Shown: in pieces, positions 32,754-42,316 of the stretch
Position numbering within the stretch: position 1 is the stretch's first letter
Layout of the letters: each line of letters opens with the position of its first letter
Assembly (NCBI RefSeq): GCF_029263665.1
Contig: NZ_JAJUFQ010000019.1
Coordinates: 18,604-82,603, forward strand
Direction: 5' to 3'
DNA length: 64,000 nt
Source: Halomonas sp.
GTDB taxonomy: Bacteria; Pseudomonadota; Gammaproteobacteria; Pseudomonadales; Halomonadaceae
Notes under the pieces: generated by a model
What the model saw: the letters and a program-made list of their open reading frames with translations, nothing else
Database searches by the model: none
Told to the model about the DNA's origin: nothing
Translations under genes and position numbers: made by a program

Positions 32754-33023
32754 ATGCCAACACACAAACCCCCTGCCAAGTCCCTTCAGGCCGCTCCCAT
32801 TCGCCACAGCGAAGAACTCGGCAAGCTGGTGCGTCAATTACGCACCGAACAGGGCCTGCTGCAGATCGACCTGGCAGGGCTGGCCGGCACCGGAAATCGC
32901 TTCATTGTCGACCTGGAACGAGGCAAGCCGACCTTGCAACTGCAAAAGGTATTGGACGTGCTGGACTTGATGGGGCTTGAGGTCATCGTGCGCCGCAAGG
33001 GTGATATTCGTCATGGCGAATGA
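32754..33023 (+). CDS. hipB: HipB/y4mF-like Xre HTH antitoxin
   Basis: LGKLVRQLR.EQGL.Q.DLAGLAG.G.RFI.DLERGKPT motif; overlaps the start of a HipA-like frame. Confidence 0.8.
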   Translation: MPTHKPPAKSLQAAPIRHSEELGKLVRQLRTEQGLLQIDLAGLAGTGNRFIVDLERGKPTLQLQKVLDVLDLMGLEVIVRRKGDIRHGE

Positions 33024-33460
33024 CAGCGCCCTGAAGGTTTACCACGGCGACGAATATGTTGGCCGACTGTACGATACTCAACCGTTACGCTTCGAATATG
33101 CCACTGAATGGCTGGAGCACCCTGAAGCGGTGAGCCTCTCGCCTTCATTGACGCTCTCACAGCGAGTTCACGTTGGCGAAGGAGTTCTGGCCTACTTCGA
33201 GAACCTGCTGCTGGAAGGTGATCAAATACGAACGCGACGGTGGCCCCAGTCTGATGTGCTGTCGCGAACTCCTGCTGCAGGTCGGCACACAGCCAAGGAC
33301 TTGCAGCGGCTAATCGGCAACAATGACGCCATGCCAAGAACCTCGCTATTCTCTATACCAACGAAGGCCCTCGGTTGGCACAGTTCTACGACCTAATGAG
33401 CACGACGCTCTATCGCAAACTCTCGCGCTGCTTTGCGTTTCGAGTTGCAGCAGTCAACTA
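33013..33460 (+). pseudogene. hipA: HipA kinase pseudogene (large internal deletion plus frameshifts)
   Basis: HipA N-terminal domain (LRFEY..EWL...SLS.SL..FENLL.EG), then out-of-frame KYERDGGPSL and IGNNDA[H]AKNL..LAQFYDLMST fragments. Confidence 0.8.
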
Positions 33461-33540
33461 ATAACTGATGCGGCTTGGTCACATCCACTTGTGTCCAAGC
33501 GAAGTCACCGCCTCTTCAAATGTGCGCAAAATATGCTACA

Positions 33541-33650
33541 TTATCGATCACCTTTGATAGCGTCGAGATCCATCTTGGCTGAAGCTGGTGCTGTGTTGCT
33601 TGCGTTTTCTGCTCATAATAAGATTCTCGTGTCGACCTAATTAGAGCTTA
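33541..33650 (-). mobile_element. IS3-family left-end/orfA remnant
   Basis: Minus strand reads MSRKRKQHSTSF/AKMDLDAIKGDR* with a frameshift, like an IS3-family OrfA N-terminus; preceded by an IR-like ...AATTAGGTCGACAC. Confidence 0.55.
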
Positions 33651-33698
33651 TCGCATAATCCAACCTTAGCTGCTCATTTCACTAAAAGCTGATAGTTC

Positions 33699-34916
33699 AT
33701 GAAAATTCGCTACACGGTTCCATTCAAACGGAAAATAATCATCGACGACCACTGGGAAATCCCGATGCAAGGAGGAAAACTCCGGGTCATCGAAGAGGCT
33801 GGCTACGCTAAAGCTCTTGAACTCATCTTCGAAAAACAACCTCTTGAATACGCACCTTATATTCAGCTATCTAGTCAAGATGAGATGCCGACAACAATTA
33901 CCCATCGCGATCTTCGCATGATATTCGTTAAGAGCCAACTCGATGATGCAGCTACGTTCCTAGAGTGCATATTTGACATTGAACTCAATACAGATGAGAT
34001 CAATGCCAAATATGAAAGTGAAACTCCCGAGGAAGAAGCCGAACTCCAGATTAAGACTTTCTCGAAAGGTCAAAATGATACCGCTCTACCACTCTCCTTC
34101 GATATGCTTACGCGTGCTATCATGGCTGCTAACGAACAAAGTGCCCCCAAGTTTGAAGCGACATTTGTAAGAAGCGCACGGAAGGCACTACAGGCACAAG
34201 AGTTCATAAATTCCTTTCGTTATTCTTTCTTACTTATTGAATCTCTTTATGGTGACGGGAAGTTTAACAAAGTGGGCTTAAAAACCGCATTGAAAAATAA
34301 CCAAGAGTTCCGAAATATCTTGGAATTAACTCTTAGAGAAGTCCCCCTGCCAAAGAGAAAAATCAACTCAGATACGGAAAAATTACTTTCCACTAAACCA
34401 TCGATAGATGATGTGATTAATCATCTTGTCGAGAAGCGAGGGTTCTATTTCCATGGAAATATAAAACGAAGGAACGCCTGGAAACCCCACGAACAGCACG
34501 CTGCAAAGTCTCTGGCCTTCCTCGCGATAGAAATCGTATCAAGAATATCCATAAATGCAGCGGAACCAATATTCGCTCAAGAATTAACGAAACGCCACTT
34601 TGAAGATGCCATCCGCGTGGGAGCAAAAATCGTGTTTGAGATAGAGTTCAAGTTCCGAGAACCAGAAGAAAATTTCGATCACAAGAATCAGATCAATATT
34701 GAGAGTCCTGGAACAAAAGTAACGCCTAGATCCGCCTTTGAGGTTGCCCAACACTTTCTCAAAGTATTCCAACACAATCAGCCTGCATCAGCTCTCCATG
34801 AAGTAAAATGCACAGTTCAGGGGACCGGAGAAAAGGTGTTTGATCTTACTTTTTATACCATTGAAGATGAAGCAGAAAGAACCACACCAAATACTCTTAA
34901 AACGAAACCCTCCTAA
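33699..34916 (+). CDS. Hypothetical 405-aa protein with HEPN-like Rx4H motif
   Basis: Long, visibly AT-rich ORF; helical block FLLIESLY...KRGFYFHG resembles a HEPN active site. Confidence 0.7.
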   Translation: MKIRYTVPFKRKIIIDDHWEIPMQGGKLRVIEEAGYAKALELIFEKQPLEYAPYIQLSSQDEMPTTITHRDLRMIFVKSQLDDAATFLECIFDIELNTDEINAKYESETPEEEAELQIKTFSKGQNDTALPLSFDMLTRAIMAANEQSAPKFEATFVRSARKALQAQEFINSFRYSFLLIESLYGDGKFNKVGLKTALKNNQEFRNILELTLREVPLPKRKINSDTEKLLSTKPSIDDVINHLVEKRGFYFHGNIKRRNAWKPHEQHAAKSLAFLAIEIVSRISINAAEPIFAQELTKRHFEDAIRVGAKIVFEIEFKFREPEENFDHKNQINIESPGTKVTPRSAFEVAQHFLKVFQHNQPASALHEVKCTVQGTGEKVFDLTFYTIEDEAERTTPNTLKTKPS

Positions 34917-35133: not shown

Positions 35134-35286
35134 TCAGCAGCTTCCTTTCTCTGCCTGCTCAATGACGCGCTTCTGGCGAGCGATGGCATTGTTGATGACC
35201 TTGCTACGCAGTGCCTGCTTCTGTTCTGCAGTTGCGTTGCGCGCAAAATGCGTCAGTGGAGTTGATTTCACGACTTTGTCATTCAT
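35134..35286 (-). CDS. Small 50-aa protein directly downstream of the zeta-toxin-family gene (not in ORF track)
   Basis: ATG 2 nt after the zeta stop; MNDKVVKSTPLTHFARNATAEQKQALRSKVINNAIARQKRVIEQAEKGSC*. Confidence 0.6.
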   Translation of the reverse strand: MNDKVVKSTPLTHFARNATAEQKQALRSKVINNAIARQKRVIEQAEKGSC

Positions 35287-35288
35287 GC

Positions 35289-36026
35289 TCAAGCCTCGTT
35301 TACGAGCAAGTCTTCCAACTGTTCTCGAGTGTAGCGCTCAGGAAGGTAGTCATCAATCGACTCGACGTCCGTCTCCCACCGCTGATTCGTGCCGTCGTTG
35401 TTCTTGATGATCATATCCAGTCCCACCTGTTGCCCGAATTCCTGCTTGATCCGCCTGGCGACATCCTGAACATCCAGGAACTGGCAGATGAAGCTGTCAA
35501 TGGGGATATTCCTACCTTCGACCTTCTCGCGGCTACATACGAACTGCCACGCAAGAGTAGGCTCCTGATATACAAAGTAAATCTGCACATCACGTTCTTT
35601 ATCCAAGGAGCGAGCAACATTCTCTCTTGCCACCTTGTAGCTAGCAAACGTGCCATCCAGGATGAACGACTGCCGCTGCTTCAGCATCAGATCATGGATC
35701 CTTGCCACCAAAGTGGAGACAGCACGCTGAAACAGCCAGGAATTGGCACCGGTGTAGCCCGGCAGCTCTTCTCTCAAGTCGTCAGGGTCGATTCGCAGCA
35801 CATTACTCAAGCCATCCATTCCTTCTGCCCTGACTTCCTCGATAGCGGCAACATACTCCTTGGAGATCTCGGTCTTGCCCGCTCCGGGTGAGCCAGCCAT
35901 AAAGATCGAAACGGGTCGCTCTTCCGGCGGATAGTCCTCGAGACTCGTTCGCTCCCGAGCGATTCGCTGTTTGTGCTGTTTGGCGTAGGCCACCGCATTG
36001 GCAATGATCTCCTCATCGCTGGCCAT
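35289..36026 (-). CDS. Zeta-toxin-family P-loop kinase
   Basis: MAGSPGAGKT Walker A, RIDPDDLRE and ILDGT motifs; GGAG RBS before ATG 36026. Confidence 0.8.
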   Translation of the reverse strand: MASDEEIIANAVAYAKQHKQRIARERTSLEDYPPEERPVSIFMAGSPGAGKTEISKEYVAAIEEVRAEGMDGLSNVLRIDPDDLREELPGYTGANSWLFQRAVSTLVARIHDLMLKQRQSFILDGTFASYKVARENVARSLDKERDVQIYFVYQEPTLAWQFVCSREKVEGRNIPIDSFICQFLDVQDVARRIKQEFGQQVGLDMIIKNNDGTNQRWETDVESIDDYLPERYTREQLEDLLVNEA

Positions 36027-36180
36027 ATTCTTCTCCCATGCCGACACGGTTGGTGAGGGTCTCGTCCTTGTAGGCTTGGGAGTAACGGGTACAGGTCTTC
36101 TTCATCGACGTTGCTTGCCTTGCCATGGGATACCTCATTCAGTGTACTGTCTTAATGGGGTGTCCACCGCTCCTGGGAAA
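36013..36180 (-). mobile_element. IS3 left-end remnant with truncated orfA
   Basis: CCCAG..GTGGACAC..TAAG.AGTA.ACT..GAGGT..CATG layout matches the IS3 left end as recalled; ORF 36126-36013 MARQATSMKKTCTRYSQAYKDETL resembles IS3 OrfA. Confidence 0.65.
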
Positions 36181-36457
36181 TGCCCACGGCGTCCGCCACA
36201 TCCGTCAAACCAACAAGGTCTGGCAAGGCCTCGATCAGGCGCGCGGAAGGAACTGCACTTTTGACATCTGCCAGAGCAGTATGAAACGCCGCTTCAGCGT
36301 TATCCGCCTCCCGGGAGAACTCCAGCGCCAGACGACCAGGCAGCTCCACGCCCACCAGGGCGTCATCACAACCGGCGGCGCCCAAGCGCTCCACCAGCGC
36401 TTCCTGATCGCTATCACGGTCAGCCAACTGGTATTTCAGCGTAAAAATGTATTCCAT
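36152..36457 (-). pseudogene. Truncated antitoxin-like/DNA-binding protein, cut by the IS3 end
   Basis: MEY.FTLKYQL..LGAAGCDDALVG..GRLALEF.REA..PDLVGLTDVAD; stops inside the C-terminal HTH at the IS3 IR. Confidence 0.6.
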
Positions 36458-37111: not shown

Positions 37112-38818
37112 TTAGCCCGAGGCGGTACTGTCCGGTGAGGAACGATCCTGACCTCGCCAAACATGCGGTGGTACAGGCATGCGATAGTGGCGGCAGGCCA
37201 TAAGAAAAATTGGAGTCAGGTGATTTCGGACAGCGCTTATCCGCTCATCCAGCGGATACTCCTTCATCACACGGTTCAGTAGGCTAAAAACGGCCTCTAG
37301 CGAGTCATTGAGTGGCAGACCTGGTACCGACACCCCGTGATCTCGATCACCATCCCAGAAAACCTCATCCGTTCGTGCGTCGGGAATCCAGATTTGGTGG
37401 GTCATGTGAGGAGCGTACTCTAACAGCGTGCTGCGCAACTGCTCTGCTCGCTCCTGATCTCCTATCATCGCAAGCCAAGCGAGCACGAAAGTGTAAAGAA
37501 TCCCCGCACGCGTATGCTCTTCGAAGTATGCATCGCTGCGGTCCCTCGGATGTGAGAGGACATCACGATATTCTGTCGTCGGCGTCGGATAATGCCGCCG
37601 AGCCCTCAGTCCGTAGCAGAGATGGTCGGACATGCTGCGGATGTAGTCAGCGACATTAGATAGGCGTCCGCGCACAGCTGCGAGACGCATAAACAGAGCC
37701 AGTTCAATCGTGAAATCGTCACGAACGGGAACGGCAAGCGTCGGATTCGCATTCAGCATCCCAATCGCTATGTTGAGCACCTTGTCCGCCCTTTCACTCA
37801 TTGCCTGCGCGAATGACTCGTCCTCCCCGGCACTTATAGCATCCAGCCATAGCCCGTGGAGAGACAACCTCCCTAGCACCTCGAATAGCGCGATGTTAAT
37901 GTCTACTGCGTTGCGTGAATTTACGGCCATTGAAAGCGCATAGCGCTTGTCAGCGAACGGGCCAATCTTCTCGACAAGTAGAAGGTGAGCGATGATGAAG
38001 TGCAGCTGCAAGACTTGATCGAAATGAGCTAGCCGCTCGTGTTGCGTCGCTCCCTTGCGCAGACGAGTACTATCACAGTGGGGCCAACTGCGTAGCAGCA
38101 CCAACTCGGATGCTCGATACGCGGCCTCAAGATTATCGGCATCGCGAGCCCAGACAAAGAGTATCCAAAGGCACAGGTAGGCCTTGCGTAGCTGACGTGT
38201 GCGCTCTGTCTGATTCTTCGGCTCAGTGAAAATGACATTGAGCAAGTGACGGAAATGCCGATAAGCGACCTCGGGCTGATCAAGCATCGCTAGCGCCTTC
38301 TGAAACAGCCCTCGATTCTCGCTCTCAATTAACTCAGCACGCAACATACCGCTAAGGATCAGATCTGAAAGACGATCCCCGTTCCATTCGGCAAAGTGAA
38401 TGTCAGCTCTCTCGTTCTTCCGACAGTAACCGCTCCACTGTGCCCGAACATCCTCACGCATCTCACCGCCCATGCAGACGCATATAACGACAGGCAGATC
38501 CGCAAAATGGGGCGGGATGCGGTTCGGGATATAGTCATCCAAAACCTCATTCAGCGACGGACGCACGGCCTGCTGGCTGGTATCCCAATGCTCTCGTGTC
38601 AAATCACCGGACTTGATCGTGAATAGGAACAGACTTCGAGTGCCATCCCGATCTGGATTGGGGCCAACTGCTGCTACGTCGACACCAGCTTGCCGGGTGC
38701 CGCGACGGGGACGGGTTAGAACTTCAAAACCACTTTCAGCCAAAAGATCAGGCAGAATAGCGTCGAGTTCGTCACGCTCGCGTAGCGAGCGCAGATAGTG
38801 CATCACGACAAGTTTCAT
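37112..38818 (-). CDS. 568-aa protein with N-terminal restriction-endonuclease-like (PD-(D/E)xK/Mrr-like) domain and long helical C-terminus
   Basis: ERDELDAILPDLL..GFEV..RQAGVDVAAVG..LFTIKSG pattern; ATGA overlap with the upstream ORF. Confidence 0.7.
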   Translation of the reverse strand: MKLVVMHYLRSLRERDELDAILPDLLAESGFEVLTRPRRGTRQAGVDVAAVGPNPDRDGTRSLFLFTIKSGDLTREHWDTSQQAVRPSLNEVLDDYIPNRIPPHFADLPVVICVCMGGEMREDVRAQWSGYCRKNERADIHFAEWNGDRLSDLILSGMLRAELIESENRGLFQKALAMLDQPEVAYRHFRHLLNVIFTEPKNQTERTRQLRKAYLCLWILFVWARDADNLEAAYRASELVLLRSWPHCDSTRLRKGATQHERLAHFDQVLQLHFIIAHLLLVEKIGPFADKRYALSMAVNSRNAVDINIALFEVLGRLSLHGLWLDAISAGEDESFAQAMSERADKVLNIAIGMLNANPTLAVPVRDDFTIELALFMRLAAVRGRLSNVADYIRSMSDHLCYGLRARRHYPTPTTEYRDVLSHPRDRSDAYFEEHTRAGILYTFVLAWLAMIGDQERAEQLRSTLLEYAPHMTHQIWIPDARTDEVFWDGDRDHGVSVPGLPLNDSLEAVFSLLNRVMKEYPLDERISAVRNHLTPIFLMACRHYRMPVPPHVWRGQDRSSPDSTASG

Positions 38819-40563
38819 CTCTGCTCTCGCTGCTCAAGCCTAAACTGGAGGAGCATATGATCGAGTCCAACTGGGTCAACGACGTTGAGGATGGGCAACT
38901 CGGACGAGACCGAGAACGAATGCATCGCAGTCTCGGTGAGATGTGTGGTGCCCTCTCCGGTGTGGATCGGCGTCAACGACGATCGGCCATACAGGATGTA
39001 TTGTTTGGCGACGAGATCCTCAAAAATAGATTCCCGGCGCCCCTGCTCCATGCCCCGTTCCATCTGCTCGTGCCATTGAACGTGTGCCGCCTCGCGCTGC
39101 ATTTCACTAGGGTGCAGCTCGACTAAACGCTCAATACCTTCCATCGCATCTTGAAGCGCTGCCTTTCGTGTGAGCACTTCAGCAAGGTCCGGGATGCTCT
39201 CAGCGTAACGCTCAAGGTAGTTCTTCAACTCTCCCCCATAGCTCACGAGCAAGGGGTGATAGATCAGATCGAGGACATCATTTTTGATATCTGAAGACCC
39301 ATCGCGAAGTACCGCTAACGGTATAGCAACTGCGGCCAGAGGATCAATGAAGAACCACCCAATGGCCTTGCGGCAGAGATATAGTTGATCCAATGGCTCC
39401 AATGGAAGAGATGACGTAGGGATGGAGAAGGGAGGATCATCGTTTCCGACACCGCAAACTTCGCTAGCCACGCATTGGTGGGTGTACATACTCCCGTTCA
39501 GCAGCCAGTACACAACCGCGCCACCCATCACATCAGAGCCGGCATTTTTCAGCGTGTAGCAAGTGCTCTGGAACGCGTTCAGCGTAATCCGGCCTTTTGA
39601 ACGATCAAATAACTCACGAAGCAGGAAAATCACTTTCTCAGCATGCCCAGCGCCCACAAGCTGATATGCTGCATGGTCGAGGTGCGAAATCGTTCCTGCG
39701 CTATCTGGGTCAACATCCGCAGCGGCATCAAGGCACAGGTTCATAGCGTTTTCTGTGAGCCCGACCTGGTGACGCCACAGCAGGTCCACTGCCAAGTGGA
39801 TCGAGATGGGACTTCTCGTCTGAACGACCCGTTCAAGTTGTTCGTCAAAACCGACTGGTGCAAGTGTTTTTCGCTGTGCAGCAGCACGATAGCCCGCTTC
39901 GAGGGACCGGAGTGCGATGTCTTCGTCATTACTGGACGCCTCTTGGAGCAGGATGTTGAGCACCTCATCGTAGCGTTCACCCAGCTCCATGGCACCCAAA
40001 GCAGAGAGGGCGGCGAGCTTCGCCTCCCTCTCGTGAGCCTGCGCAAAAATGAGGCTTTCCTCGATATCGGCGTTCATTACGAGAACCGTGAATAGTTGAC
40101 GCAGAGCCAGGCCATCACCGGCACGTACCGCTTCGTAGACCCTGGAGGATCTGACCGGGTCCTTCTTCGTCCACTCCCCAAAAGCGGTACTCGGGGCGCC
40201 AGCAGCCAGATCGTTGCCACCTGTATCGAGCAGGCGCGTGACGAAGGCAAGAAGAATGTCCTGATCTACGTTCAGAAGAGGTATCAGGTCGCATAGAACA
40301 TGCTGGACGAGGAAGAAGCGCGGTCCCTCCAGCTCTGCCAGCGCATCTTCGATATGGAGGTCAATCGGCGGCGCATCGGTAGCGTTCAATATGGTCGCAA
40401 GCGTCTCGAGCAACGCAGAATGGTTATCGTCCAGACTCCGACACTCACGATCCGCAACCGTACGGACCAAGCCGCGTGTGCGAAGTTGAGTAGCCAATTC
40501 CGCCTCGTCTACCGGTGTCCCCTCTGTTGCCATTGGTCTACCCATTGGATCCTTTGTTCCCAA
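38815..40563 (-). CDS. 582-aa hypothetical protein, predicted alpha-helical (HEAT/ARM-like)
   Basis: Long intact ORF with repeated amphipathic helices; no catalytic motif recognised; start may be 40533. Confidence 0.75.
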   Translation of the reverse strand: MGTKDPMGRPMATEGTPVDEAELATQLRTRGLVRTVADRECRSLDDNHSALLETLATILNATDAPPIDLHIEDALAELEGPRFFLVQHVLCDLIPLLNVDQDILLAFVTRLLDTGGNDLAAGAPSTAFGEWTKKDPVRSSRVYEAVRAGDGLALRQLFTVLVMNADIEESLIFAQAHEREAKLAALSALGAMELGERYDEVLNILLQEASSNDEDIALRSLEAGYRAAAQRKTLAPVGFDEQLERVVQTRSPISIHLAVDLLWRHQVGLTENAMNLCLDAAADVDPDSAGTISHLDHAAYQLVGAGHAEKVIFLLRELFDRSKGRITLNAFQSTCYTLKNAGSDVMGGAVVYWLLNGSMYTHQCVASEVCGVGNDDPPFSIPTSSLPLEPLDQLYLCRKAIGWFFIDPLAAVAIPLAVLRDGSSDIKNDVLDLIYHPLLVSYGGELKNYLERYAESIPDLAEVLTRKAALQDAMEGIERLVELHPSEMQREAAHVQWHEQMERGMEQGRRESIFEDLVAKQYILYGRSSLTPIHTGEGTTHLTETAMHSFSVSSELPILNVVDPVGLDHMLLQFRLEQREQR

Positions 40564-40738: not shown

Positions 40739-42316
40739 TCACTCCCACTCAATCGTCGCGGGCGGCTTGCTTGATACGTCGTAGGTCACGCGGGAGACGC
40801 CGGGCAGTTCGTTGATGATGCGGTTGGACACCTTCTCCAGCAGTTCGTAAGGCAGATGGGCCCAACGGGCGGTCATGAAGTCGATGGTTTCCACGGCGCG
40901 CAGGGCGATGACCCATTCGTAGCGACGACCGTCGCCGACCACGCCAACGGACTTGACCGGCAGGAACACGGCGAAGGCCTGGCTGGTCTTGTGGTACCAA
41001 CCGGAAGCGTGCAGTTCTTCGATGAAGATGGCGTCGGCATCGCGCAGGATATCGGCGTATTCCTTCTTCACTTCGCCGAGGATGCGCACGCCCAGGCCCG
41101 GTCCCGGGAAGGGATGGCGGTAGACCATGTCGTACGGCAGGCCAAGTTCGAGACCCAGCTTGCGCACTTCATCCTTGAACAGTTCGCGCAGCGGCTCGAC
41201 CAGTTGAAGCTTCATGTCTTCCGGCAGGCCACCAACGTTATGGTGCGACTTGATCACATGGGCCTTGCCGGTCTTGGCGGCGGCAGACTCGATCACGTCC
41301 GGATAGATGGTGCCTTGGGCCAGGAATTCGACACCTTCGATCTTGGCGGATTCCTCATCGAATACTTCGATGAAGGTGTTACCGATGACCTTGCGCTTCT
41401 GCTCGGGATCGCTGACACCTTCCAGCTTGCCGAGGAACAGCGACTCAGCATCGGCACGAATCACGCGCACGCCCATATGCTTGGCGAAGGTTTCCATGAC
41501 CTGATCGCCTTCGTTCTTGCGCAGCAGGCCATTGTCGACGAATACGCAGGTCAACTGGTCGCCGATAGCCTTGTGCAGCAGCGCTGCCACCACGGAAGAG
41601 TCGACACCACCAGAAAGTCCCAGCAGTACATGACGATCGCCGACCTGGTCACGCACTCGAGCGATCTGGTCTTCAATGATTTGTGCCGGCGTCCAGTTGC
41701 ACTCGCTCTGACAGATATCCACCACGAAGTGCTCAAGGATTCGCTGGCCCTGCAGGGTATGCGTCACTTCCGGGTGGAACTGCACACCGTAGAAGCGCTT
41801 TTCTTCCCAGGCCATGGCCGCGATCGGGCAACTGGGCGTAGAAGCGGTAATGGTGAATTCCTTGGGCGCTTCCGCCACCTTGTCACCGTGGCTCATCCAC
41901 ACATCCAGCAGGCCACGGCCAGTCTCGTGGTCGACGTGGTCCTTGATGTCCTTGAACAGGGCGTTCTCGGCATCTACACGAATCTGGGCATAACCGAACT
42001 CGCGCTTGTTGGAGCCTGCAACACTGCCACCGAGCTGTTCGGCCATGGTCTGCATGCCATAGCAGATGCCCAGTACCGGCAGTCCCATCTCGAACACGCA
42101 ATCGGGGGCGCGCGGAGAGTCCAGTTCGGTCACCGACTCCGGGCCACCGGCAAGAATGATACCGTTGGGCTGATACTCGCGGATTTCTTCTTCGCTGATG
42201 TCGAAGGCGCGAACCTCGGAGTAGACACCGATTTCCCGTACCCGACGCGCAATCAGCTGGGTGTACTGGGAACCGAAGTCGAGGATCAGGATCTTGTGGG
42301 CGTGAATATCGGTCAT
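40739..42316 (-). CDS. guaA: GMP synthase (glutamine-hydrolysing)
   Basis: [35 protein letters not shown] and KPPATIEWE motifs. Confidence 0.98.

What the first reader, a model, noticed from the sequence alone, without database searches (positions are those of the whole stretch)
33699..34916. AT-rich orphan 405-aa gene with a HEPN-like Rx4H motif
Seen: an intact ORF, visibly AT-richer than the flanking core genes, standing alone between an IS3 scar and the zeta module. A helical region carries FLLIESLY...KRGFYFH. Known: HEPN RNases (RloC, PrrC, ApeA, AbiF-like) use Rx4-6H and are frequent stand-alone defence effectors. Inference: a horizontally acquired anti-phage or toxin RNase with unknown N- and C-terminal domains.
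Basis: partly seen in the sequence, partly recalled or inferred. Interest (0 to 1): 0.65.

Follow-up and report, generated by a model that had tools for sequence, protein, structure and literature searches.

The report
Unnamed mobile gene with RNase-like motif
This is a real, horizontally mobile gene from a large, completely unannotated bacterial protein family whose invariant Arg-x4-His site suggests a latent RNA-cutting defence or toxin enzyme, but the predicted fold could not be matched to any known nuclease.

Summary
The 405-aa ORF at 33699-34916 (+), its low GC and the FLLIESLY / KRGFYFH motifs are all real. It is not an orphan. An exhaustive profile search finds 611 clusters at 50% identity, all "hypothetical", with no Pfam, NCBIfam, PADLOC or PHROG model.

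R247, G248 and H252 are invariant down to 18% identity, and position 181 is always acidic. In the AlphaFold model the R-x4-H sits at the end of a helix and the start of the next loop. The acidic residue lies on an earlier helix, with a helical insert between them. This is the layout described for HEPN RNases.

The fold itself is not confirmed. Foldseek with the whole chain and with the domain alone finds nothing significant. Only sub-threshold, non-robust hits to HEPN_Apea and MauJ appear in distant relatives, and the residue after R is Gly rather than the usual polar one.

The gene travels alone, with no conserved partner, repeat or RNA element. It is AT-richer than its flanks in 32 of 33 loci, is absent from phages, and recurs downstream of guaA beside defence and toxin modules.

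Best reading (confidence about 0.45): a self-contained, latent HEPN-like RNase effector.

The parts
33699..34916 (+). Complete gene, 405 aa plus stop. It belongs to a large unannotated protein family.
   Evidence: ORF. Homologues start at the same MR/KIRY N-terminus and are collinear over 95-99% of the length. 611 family clusters.
33699..34079 (+). N-terminal acidic, beta-rich domain (residues 1-127, pI 4.7). It carries the conserved D17-H18-W19, P53 and the acidic Y105-x2-E108-x3-E112 stretch. Proposed sensor or regulatory domain.
   Evidence: AF2 secondary structure. Conservation. pI. No fold or profile match.
34080..34628 (+). Central basic all-helical domain (residues 128-310, pI 9.8). Proposed catalytic, HEPN-like domain.
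   Evidence: AF2 whole-chain and domain-only models. Both invariant motifs lie here. pI.
34212..34259 (+). Helix motif S172-FRYSFLLIESLYGDG-187. Position 181 is always acidic (E in at least 90% of sequences, D otherwise).
   Evidence: Invariant in A1. E/D in all 62 sequences of A2. Lies in helix 169-184 of the model.
34437..34460 (+). R247-G-F-Y-F-H252-G-N254: the R-x4-H motif. R247, G248 and H252 are invariant across the whole family.
   Evidence: R247 is the last residue of helix 236-250 (236-247 in the domain-only model). H252 lies in the following low-confidence loop.
34629..34850 (+). C-terminal beta-beta-alpha-beta-beta domain (residues 311-384, acidic). It is absent from a 313-330-aa subfamily, so it is dispensable for the core.
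   Evidence: AF2. Short subfamily members match only profile positions 1 to about 300.
33632..33659 (+). Weak sigma-70-like promoter candidate 40 nt upstream of the start codon.
   Evidence: Consensus scan only: 9 of 12 positions match, and the number of sites found is no higher than in shuffled sequence. Only about 60 nt upstream are conserved between enterobacterial loci.

Best explanation
The gene encodes a self-contained, normally latent nucleic-acid-targeting effector, most likely a metal-independent RNase of the HEPN type. It is carried as single-gene cargo in horizontally exchanged islands. A basic central helical domain presents an invariant Arg247-Gly-x3-His252 at the end of one helix, with an always-acidic residue (Glu181) on an earlier helix. 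As in other HEPN enzymes, two such sites would be expected to pair across a homodimer to form the active centre. The acidic N-terminal beta-rich domain and the C-terminal alpha/beta domain would hold the enzyme off and sense a trigger, such as a phage-derived cue. Activation would cut tRNA or other RNA and arrest growth (abortive infection). Shown here: the gene is real and conserved; the motif is invariant and its position in the secondary structure fits; the gene is mobile on its own; and it often sits in defence and toxin islands. Inferred, not shown: the HEPN fold, dimerisation, RNase chemistry, the trigger and the defence phenotype.
For: R247, G248 and H252 are invariant, and position 181 is always acidic, in 62 sequences down to 18% identity. 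In two independent AF2 models R247 ends a helix and H252 starts the following loop. E181 lies on an earlier helix, and a helical insert (191-231) separates the two. [quoted passage not shown] The central domain is basic (pI 9.8) between acidic domains. Distant members give recurrent sub-threshold hits to HEPN_Apea (3 of 62) that cover the motif region. There is no conserved neighbour, small ORF, repeat array or Rfam element, so the gene is a one-gene module like ApeA or DARNA. In the window it lies in an island with Olokun, a PDC-M06B/zeta-toxin pair and a HipA remnant. Elsewhere it lies beside Gabija plus a RES-domain gene plus HipA, beside a NACHT ATPase, and beside NA-iREase2 plus RelA_SpoT. 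It is AT-richer than its flanks in 32 of 33 loci. The distribution is patchy, with 72% identity across proteobacterial classes.
Against: Foldseek against the PDB with the whole model gave no hit at E <= 1e-3. With the domain-only model the best E was 0.92, and Csm6 HEPN chains appeared only at ranks 21-44 with E 3-5. No HEPN family of Pfam reaches threshold for any member. Subgroup consensus sequences lose the HEPN_Apea signal altogether. Profile searches of PDB sequences find no HEPN protein. PADLOC has no match. The residue after the Arg is an invariant Gly, whereas HEPN families usually have N, D or H there. The acidic residue is not in an E-x3-K/R context. Many loci are lone insertions among housekeeping genes: of 150 nearest neighbours in 25 species only a minority are defence-related. 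No enrichment control was run.
Confidence: 0.45

Rival explanations
1. It is a mobile effector or toxin enzyme with an Arg/His/Glu active site, but the helical fold is not HEPN and the chemistry may differ (another phosphodiesterase, a nucleotide- or protein-modifying activity). The R-x4-H spacing would then be convergent.
For: No structural or profile match to any HEPN. Invariant Gly after Arg is atypical for HEPN. Most distant members have a His-rich RGxLHHH version and a conserved W261-(H)-P, which could indicate metal or ligand binding. The more frequent weak hits are to MauJ, a family of unknown function, not to HEPN.
Against: The position of the motif in the secondary structure, the upstream acidic residue and the basic domain all fit HEPN. 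Small helical bundles are hard for Foldseek, so the negative result is weak.
Confidence: 0.3
2. It is a MauJ-like accessory or regulatory protein with a cellular, non-conflict role, and its presence in islands is incidental.
For: MauJ (PF17419) is the Pfam family hit most often by distant members: 7 of 62, best E 1.3e-4. Three of the eight consensus sequences scanned also hit it, over the LET-helix region. About half of the loci have only housekeeping neighbours.
Against: All MauJ hits are below the gathering score. There is no conserved operon or metabolic partner. The gene is persistently AT-rich against any host (32 of 33 loci). It is found in only 34 of 185,579 species representatives, across several classes. 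It recurs at an island hotspot next to toxin and defence genes. These are features of mobile conflict genes, not of housekeeping accessories.
Confidence: 0.12
3. It is the toxin of a two-part toxin-antitoxin system whose protein or RNA antitoxin has been overlooked. One candidate would be functional coupling to the neighbouring HipBA-type module.
For: HipA genes or remnants lie next to the gene in the window, Klebsiella, Cronobacter, Erwinia and Providencia. Some HEPN toxins have RNA antitoxins.
Against: There is no conserved small ORF, tandem repeat or Rfam element in the spacers. Most loci lack HipA. The enterobacterial hipBA is a 96-97% identical block, whereas the window's HipA fragment is an unrelated lineage. 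That points to co-residence at the guaA hotspot, not coupling.
Confidence: 0.08

Closest known systems
ApeA (HEPN_Apea, PF18739): single-protein anti-phage tRNA anticodon nuclease
   Same: Both are single-gene modules with no partner. Both have an R-x4-H site on a helical domain, combined with uncharacterised non-catalytic domains thought to sense a trigger. HEPN_Apea is the only HEPN family to give any hit, and those hits are sub-threshold, come from a few distant relatives, and lie over the motif region.
   Different: ApeA is about 580 aa, predominantly helical, with N-terminal and Mid domains and a split C-terminal HEPN. The target is 405 aa with a beta-rich N-domain, a central helical domain and a C-terminal alpha/beta domain. 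The hits are 15-17 bits against a cut-off of 24.4 and vanish with consensus queries. The PADLOC ApeA model is not hit.
DARNA / PD-T7-3: ssDNA-activated HEPN tRNase
   Same: It is a lone defence protein with an R-x4-H HEPN site. The site is kept occluded until a phage cue arrives, and the enzyme then cleaves tRNA. This is a mechanistic analogue for the proposed latency.
   Different: DARNA has an N-terminal HEPN domain (R117/H122) and a Pds5-like all-helical C-domain, 456 aa in all. There is no sequence match, and PADLOC gives no hit.
MauJ (PF17419), methylamine-utilisation cluster protein of unknown function
   Same: It is the Pfam family hit most often by distant relatives. The matches cover the region from the LET helix to the RGxLHH motif.
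   Different: All hits are below the gathering score (13-18 bits in the tables seen, best E 1.3e-4, against a cut-off of 28 bits). None comes from the target's own subgroup. No function or fold is known for MauJ, so the link gives no mechanism.
PrrC / RloC / AbiF-AbiD type HEPN anticodon nucleases and Abi proteins
   Same: They have a conserved R-x4-6-H site, they lie in defence islands, and they act as latent toxic RNases.
   Different: These carry ABC-ATPase or other characteristic N-domains, or depend on partners or RNA antitoxins. None of those features is present here.

Membership tests
HEPN superfamily | Conserved R-x4-6-H motif | tested here: met
   R247-x4-H252 is invariant in 44 and in 62 sequences, down to 18% identity.
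HEPN superfamily | [quoted passage not shown] | tested here: met
   In both AF2 models R247 ends helix 236-250 (236-247 in the domain-only model) and H252 is in the loop before helix 267-287 (263-292 in the domain-only model). A helical insert spans 191-231. The criterion is from PMC3710099. This rests on predicted, not solved, structure.
HEPN superfamily | Conserved acidic residue upstream of the motif (typically E-x3-K/R) | tested here: inconclusive
   Position 181 is E or D in all 62 sequences, but it is not in an E-x3-K/R context.
HEPN superfamily | Polar residue (N/D/H) immediately after the Arg (typical, not obligatory) | tested here: not met
   G248 is invariant.
HEPN superfamily | Four-helix up-down bundle recognised by structure comparison | tested here: inconclusive
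   Foldseek against the PDB: no hit at E <= 1e-3 with the whole chain. With the domain alone the best E was 0.92, and Csm6 appeared only at E 3-5. BFVD gave nothing.
HEPN superfamily | Significant profile match to a HEPN family | tested here: not met
   The target and its close relatives have no Pfam hit. HEPN_Apea appears only at 15-17 bits, below the 24.4 cut-off, in 3 of 62 distant members. It does not appear with consensus queries. Profile searches of PDB sequences were negative.
HEPN superfamily | Metal-independent RNase activity from a composite dimeric site | not testable with these tools
   This needs biochemistry or a multimer model.
ApeA | Apea N-terminal region plus C-terminal HEPN_Apea, about 580 aa, with a PADLOC ApeA model hit | tested here: not met
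   The architecture and length differ. There is no PADLOC hit.
MauJ (PF17419) | Score at or above the Pfam gathering threshold (28 bits) | tested here: not met
   Scores in the tables seen were 13-18 bits and the best E was 1.3e-4, in distant members only. The target itself has no hit.
Two-component toxin-antitoxin (type II or III) | Conserved adjacent antitoxin gene or upstream repeat RNA | tested here: not met
   No neighbour is conserved across the loci examined. There is no conserved small ORF, tandem repeat or Rfam match.
Anti-phage defence gene (operational definition) | Enrichment next to known defence systems | tested here: inconclusive
   Defence or toxin neighbours are present in the window and in the Klebsiella, Yersinia and Pseudomonas loci, and in a few species representatives. 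Many loci are housekeeping. No background control was run.
Anti-phage defence gene (operational definition) | Protection against phage when expressed | not testable with these tools
   This needs an experiment.

The most novel reading that the evidence does not exclude
The family (611 clusters, entirely unannotated) is a new kind of single-protein immune or toxin effector. Its catalytic domain is not a HEPN but a previously undescribed helical fold built around E...R-G-x3-H, distantly related to MauJ. It is coupled to two novel sensor domains. That would also give the first functional clue for MauJ-like proteins.
Probability: 0.2. Interest if true: 0.7.

Novelty: new variant of a known kind. 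Interest (0 to 1): 0.5.

Why it matters
If the proposal holds, this is a widespread defence or toxin family that has never been described. It would be a compact one-gene RNase effector with two unknown regulatory domains, adding a new trigger-sensing architecture to the growing set of lone HEPN immune proteins such as ApeA and DARNA. It would supply a model for a protein family that current annotation pipelines and defence finders miss entirely. The invariant residues R247, H252 and E181 make the hypothesis cheaply testable. The recurrence at the guaA-proximal hotspot also marks that site as a place to look for further unknown systems. If the proposal fails, the family is still a large conserved 'hypothetical' group with a clear catalytic-type signature that needs a function.

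Tried and rejected
1. Direct family assignment failed. The target has no hit in Pfam, NCBIfam, PADLOC, PHROGs or PDB sequences.

2. Foldseek with the whole model against the PDB and BFVD gave only noise. The vasohibin and USP protease hits at E about 0.1 were rejected because no Cys or His is conserved across the family at the relevant places.

3. A domain-only model followed by Foldseek gave no significant hit.

4. Scanning subgroup consensus sequences against Pfam, as a rough substitute for a profile-profile search, did not strengthen the HEPN signal.

5. I tried to obtain genuine HEPN or ApeA sequences for an hhalign comparison. The supplement of the HEPN survey is only an index page. The ApeA preprint text gives no usable sequences. 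Motif-picked ORFs from the fetched loci were not verified as HEPN. The profile-profile test was therefore not possible.

6. DARNA/PD-T7-3 identity was rejected on architecture.

7. Phage or prophage cargo was rejected. There is no match in 50,697 phage records or in 2.9 million viral contigs.

8. Plasmid cargo: only two rhizobial replicons, at about 30% identity. There is no match in complete E. coli genomes.

9. A hidden antitoxin or RNA element was rejected.

10. Functional coupling to HipBA was rejected.

11. A literature search for MauJ returned only noise. Source names for distant relatives are all 'hypothetical'.

12. For transcription evidence, the only public run listed is a metagenome run tagged DNA?, holding about 7% of the sampled words. 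No RNA run was listed.

Full report
**Observation**

The window holds an intact ORF at 33699..34916 (+), 405 aa. Sliding-window GC drops to 0.41-0.43 across it, against 0.55-0.62 on both sides. Over the whole gene GC is 0.421 against 0.581 for the rest of the window. The protein contains F177-LLIESLY and K246-RGFYFH252, so R247-x4-H252 is present.

Upstream on the minus strand, at about 33540-33616, lies a frameshifted remnant reading MSRKRKQHSTSF / SAKMDLDAIKGDR. When stitched, this peptide hits the N-termini of annotated IS3-family transposases in 90 plasmid records, the best from a Halomonas plasmid. Downstream on the minus strand is a zeta-toxin gene (35289-36047, Pfam Zeta_toxin E 2e-40). 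The description of the sequence is therefore right. The word 'orphan' is not.

**A large unnamed family**

A word-indexed search found at least 171 full-length homologues of 388-405 aa, with 45-72% identity among the 120 listed, all called 'hypothetical protein'. They come from Pseudomonas, Pantoea, Cronobacter, Klebsiella, Yersinia, Providencia, Salinicola, Vreelandella and Mesorhizobium.

An exhaustive HMM search with a 44-sequence profile found 611 clusters at 50% identity with E <= 1e-3, and 369 with E <= 1e-10. These include a 313-330-aa subfamily that lacks the C-terminal domain, and longer variants of 435-506 aa.

None of Pfam, NCBIfam, PADLOC, PHROGs or PDB sequences matches the target. 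Public source names for distant members are also only 'hypothetical'.

**Conservation of the motif**

Among 44 relatives at 45% identity or more, S172, F173, R174, F177-LLIE181, G185, G187, H242, R247-GFYFHGN254, W261 and Q266 are invariant.

Among 62 sequences reaching 18% identity, R247, G248 and H252 remain invariant. E181, G187, W261, E112 and P53 are conserved in at least 90%. Position 181 is E or D in every sequence.

The family-wide signatures are YIDAFYxFFFxLE(T/S)LFGxGKFK and LVxxRGxLHHH...W(H)P. This is the pattern of an active site, not a chance motif.

**Structure**

AlphaFold2 with the 44-sequence alignment gave mean pLDDT 79.8 and pTM 0.70. The model has three parts:
- a beta-rich N-terminal domain (about residues 1-113);
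- a helical central domain (134-306);
- a beta-beta-alpha-beta-beta C-terminal domain (310-384).

A domain-only model of residues 128-310 gave pLDDT 78.7 and agrees. In both models R247 is at the C-terminal end of a helix: 236-250 in the whole-chain model and 236-247 in the domain-only model. H252 is in the low-confidence loop that leads to the next long helix. E181 lies in helix 169-184, and a helical insert (191-231) separates the two.

[quoted passage not shown] The central domain is basic (pI 9.8) and is flanked by acidic domains with pI 4.7 and 5.8.

**The fold test fails to confirm HEPN**

Foldseek of the whole model against the PDB gave no hit at E <= 1e-3 and no HEPN chain in the top 50. 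BFVD gave nothing meaningful. The domain-only model gave a best E of 0.92, with Csm6 chains at ranks 21, 38 and 44 (E 3.3-4.7) among generic helical bundles.

At the sequence level, a Pfam scan of 62 diverse members gave recurrent but sub-threshold hits:
- MauJ in 7 members, best E 1.3e-4;
- HEPN_Apea in 3 members, best E 0.008, 17 bits against a 24.4-bit cut-off.

These hits do span the LET helix and the RGxLHH motif. However, subgroup consensus sequences lose HEPN_Apea completely and keep only weak MauJ matches.

The invariant Gly after Arg also departs from the usual N/D/H. I could not run a true profile-profile comparison because no verified HEPN alignment could be obtained with the tools. 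HEPN membership is therefore plausible but unproven.

**Genomic behaviour**

The gene travels alone. Across the independent loci examined no neighbour is conserved. There is no conserved small ORF, tandem repeat or Rfam element in the spacers. Only about 60 nt upstream and about 200 nt downstream are shared among enterobacterial loci.

The gene is AT-richer than its flanks in 32 of 33 loci, by 11.9 points on average, in hosts whose flanking GC ranges from 42 to 72%. It occurs in 34 loci from 185,579 species-representative genomes. These span Alpha-, Beta- and Gammaproteobacteria and Nitrospirales, with 72% identity to a Pusillimonas copy. It is absent from phage records and viral contigs and from complete E. 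coli genomes. On plasmids it appears only twice, at about 30% identity.

**Neighbourhoods**

In the window the gene lies in an island of about 8 kb next to guaA (40739-42316, -). In order, the island holds:
- a HipB-like HTH gene and a truncated HipA;
- the IS3 scar;
- the target;
- a small ORF, the zeta-toxin gene and a PDC-M06B gene;
- OloB and OloA, a complete Olokun system (E 1.7e-197 and 1e-103).

The same guaA-proximal position recurs in four other genera:
- Klebsiella, with HipBA, a RES-domain gene and Gabija;
- Providencia, with an Mrr-like gene and IS elements;
- Cronobacter, directly adjacent to guaA;
- Salinicola.

It also recurs in 5 of the 25 species representatives whose neighbours were scanned. 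Yersinia carries the gene in an integrase island with a NACHT ATPase. Pseudomonas carries it in an integrative element beside NA-iREase2 and RelA_SpoT genes.

Many other loci are lone insertions among housekeeping genes. The defence-island association is therefore real but partial, and I ran no background control. HipA co-occurrence reflects co-residence: the enterobacterial hipBA is a 96-97% identical block, while the window's fragment is an unrelated lineage.

**Interpretation**

The best-supported reading is a self-contained, latent effector with a HEPN-like R/H/E site, regulated by its own N- and C-terminal domains. It would be analogous in logic, though not homologous in architecture, to ApeA and DARNA. 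My confidence is about 0.45.

The main rival is the same kind of mobile effector with a non-HEPN fold or different chemistry (0.3). Less likely are a MauJ-like cellular accessory role (0.12) and a toxin with an overlooked antitoxin (0.08).

**Novelty**

The family has no model in any library searched and no mention in the literature I could search, so it is undescribed. If it is HEPN-like, it is a new variant of a known kind of lone RNase effector. If it is not, it may be a new catalytic fold.

Noticed in passing
window 37112-40563 (-): A complete Olokun defence system lies immediately next to guaA. OloB is at 37112-38818 (PADLOC E 1.7e-197) and OloA at 38815-40563 (E 1e-103). The two genes overlap by 4 nt.
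   Followed up: partly
window 35134-36457 (-): This looks like a three-gene minus-strand operon. It has a 101-aa PDC-M06B-like gene (36152-36457, PADLOC E 4e-44, matching only the first 95 of 174 profile positions), a zeta-toxin kinase (35289-36047), and a 52-aa ORF (35134-35292) whose start overlaps the zeta stop codon by 4 nt. The zeta protein itself did not hit a PDC-M06A model.
   Followed up: partly
window 32754-33616: There is a HipB-like HTH gene (32754-33023) followed by a HipA gene reduced to its N-terminal 'Couple_hipA' domain (32977-33396). Next comes a frameshifted IS3 OrfA N-terminal remnant on the minus strand (about 33540-33616). This looks like a hipBA module destroyed by an IS3 insertion that was itself later deleted.
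   Followed up: partly
window 40739-42316 (guaA); loci L001, L007/L008, L012, L018-L020, L022, L023, L025, L028: The region just downstream of guaA is a recurrent island site across Halomonadaceae-like, Klebsiella, Providencia, Cronobacter, Erwinia, Enterobacter, Pantoea, Pseudomonas and Salinicola genomes. The cargo differs each time (Olokun, Gabija, RES, HipBA, Mrr-like, a TPR protein), but the target family is often present. From my own knowledge, the guaA 3' end is a known integration site for genomic islands. No integrase was seen in the window's island.
   Followed up: partly
L001 5832-7671, L012 7831-9652, L023 7834-9670: A hipA (424 aa) plus 177-183-aa HTH antitoxin pair is 93-98% identical at the protein level between Klebsiella, Cronobacter and Erwinia (HipA 96-98%, HTH partner 93-95%). 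This indicates very recent inter-genus exchange of the block that also carries the target's homologue.
   Followed up: partly
proteins P0208-P0267 (short subfamily) and P0175, P0176, P0181, P0188, P0211, P0255: The family has a 313-330-aa form without the C-terminal alpha/beta domain, and 435-506-aa forms with an extended or apparently duplicated C-terminal region. Most distant members have RGxLHHH instead of RGFYFHG.
   Followed up: partly
L030 16908-17582 (-): A 225-aa ORF in a Novosphingobium MAG carries a textbook-looking HEPN-type motif (…VRNKLVHGNW…) but has no Pfam hit at E <= 0.1. It lies about 6 kb from the target's homologue.
   Followed up: no
L026 (MAG labelled Anaerolineaceae) versus L027 (Advenella MAG): The two loci have the same gene arrangement around the homologue, and the copies are 68-69% identical to the query. 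The Anaerolineaceae label may reflect a binning error rather than true presence in Chloroflexota.
   Followed up: no
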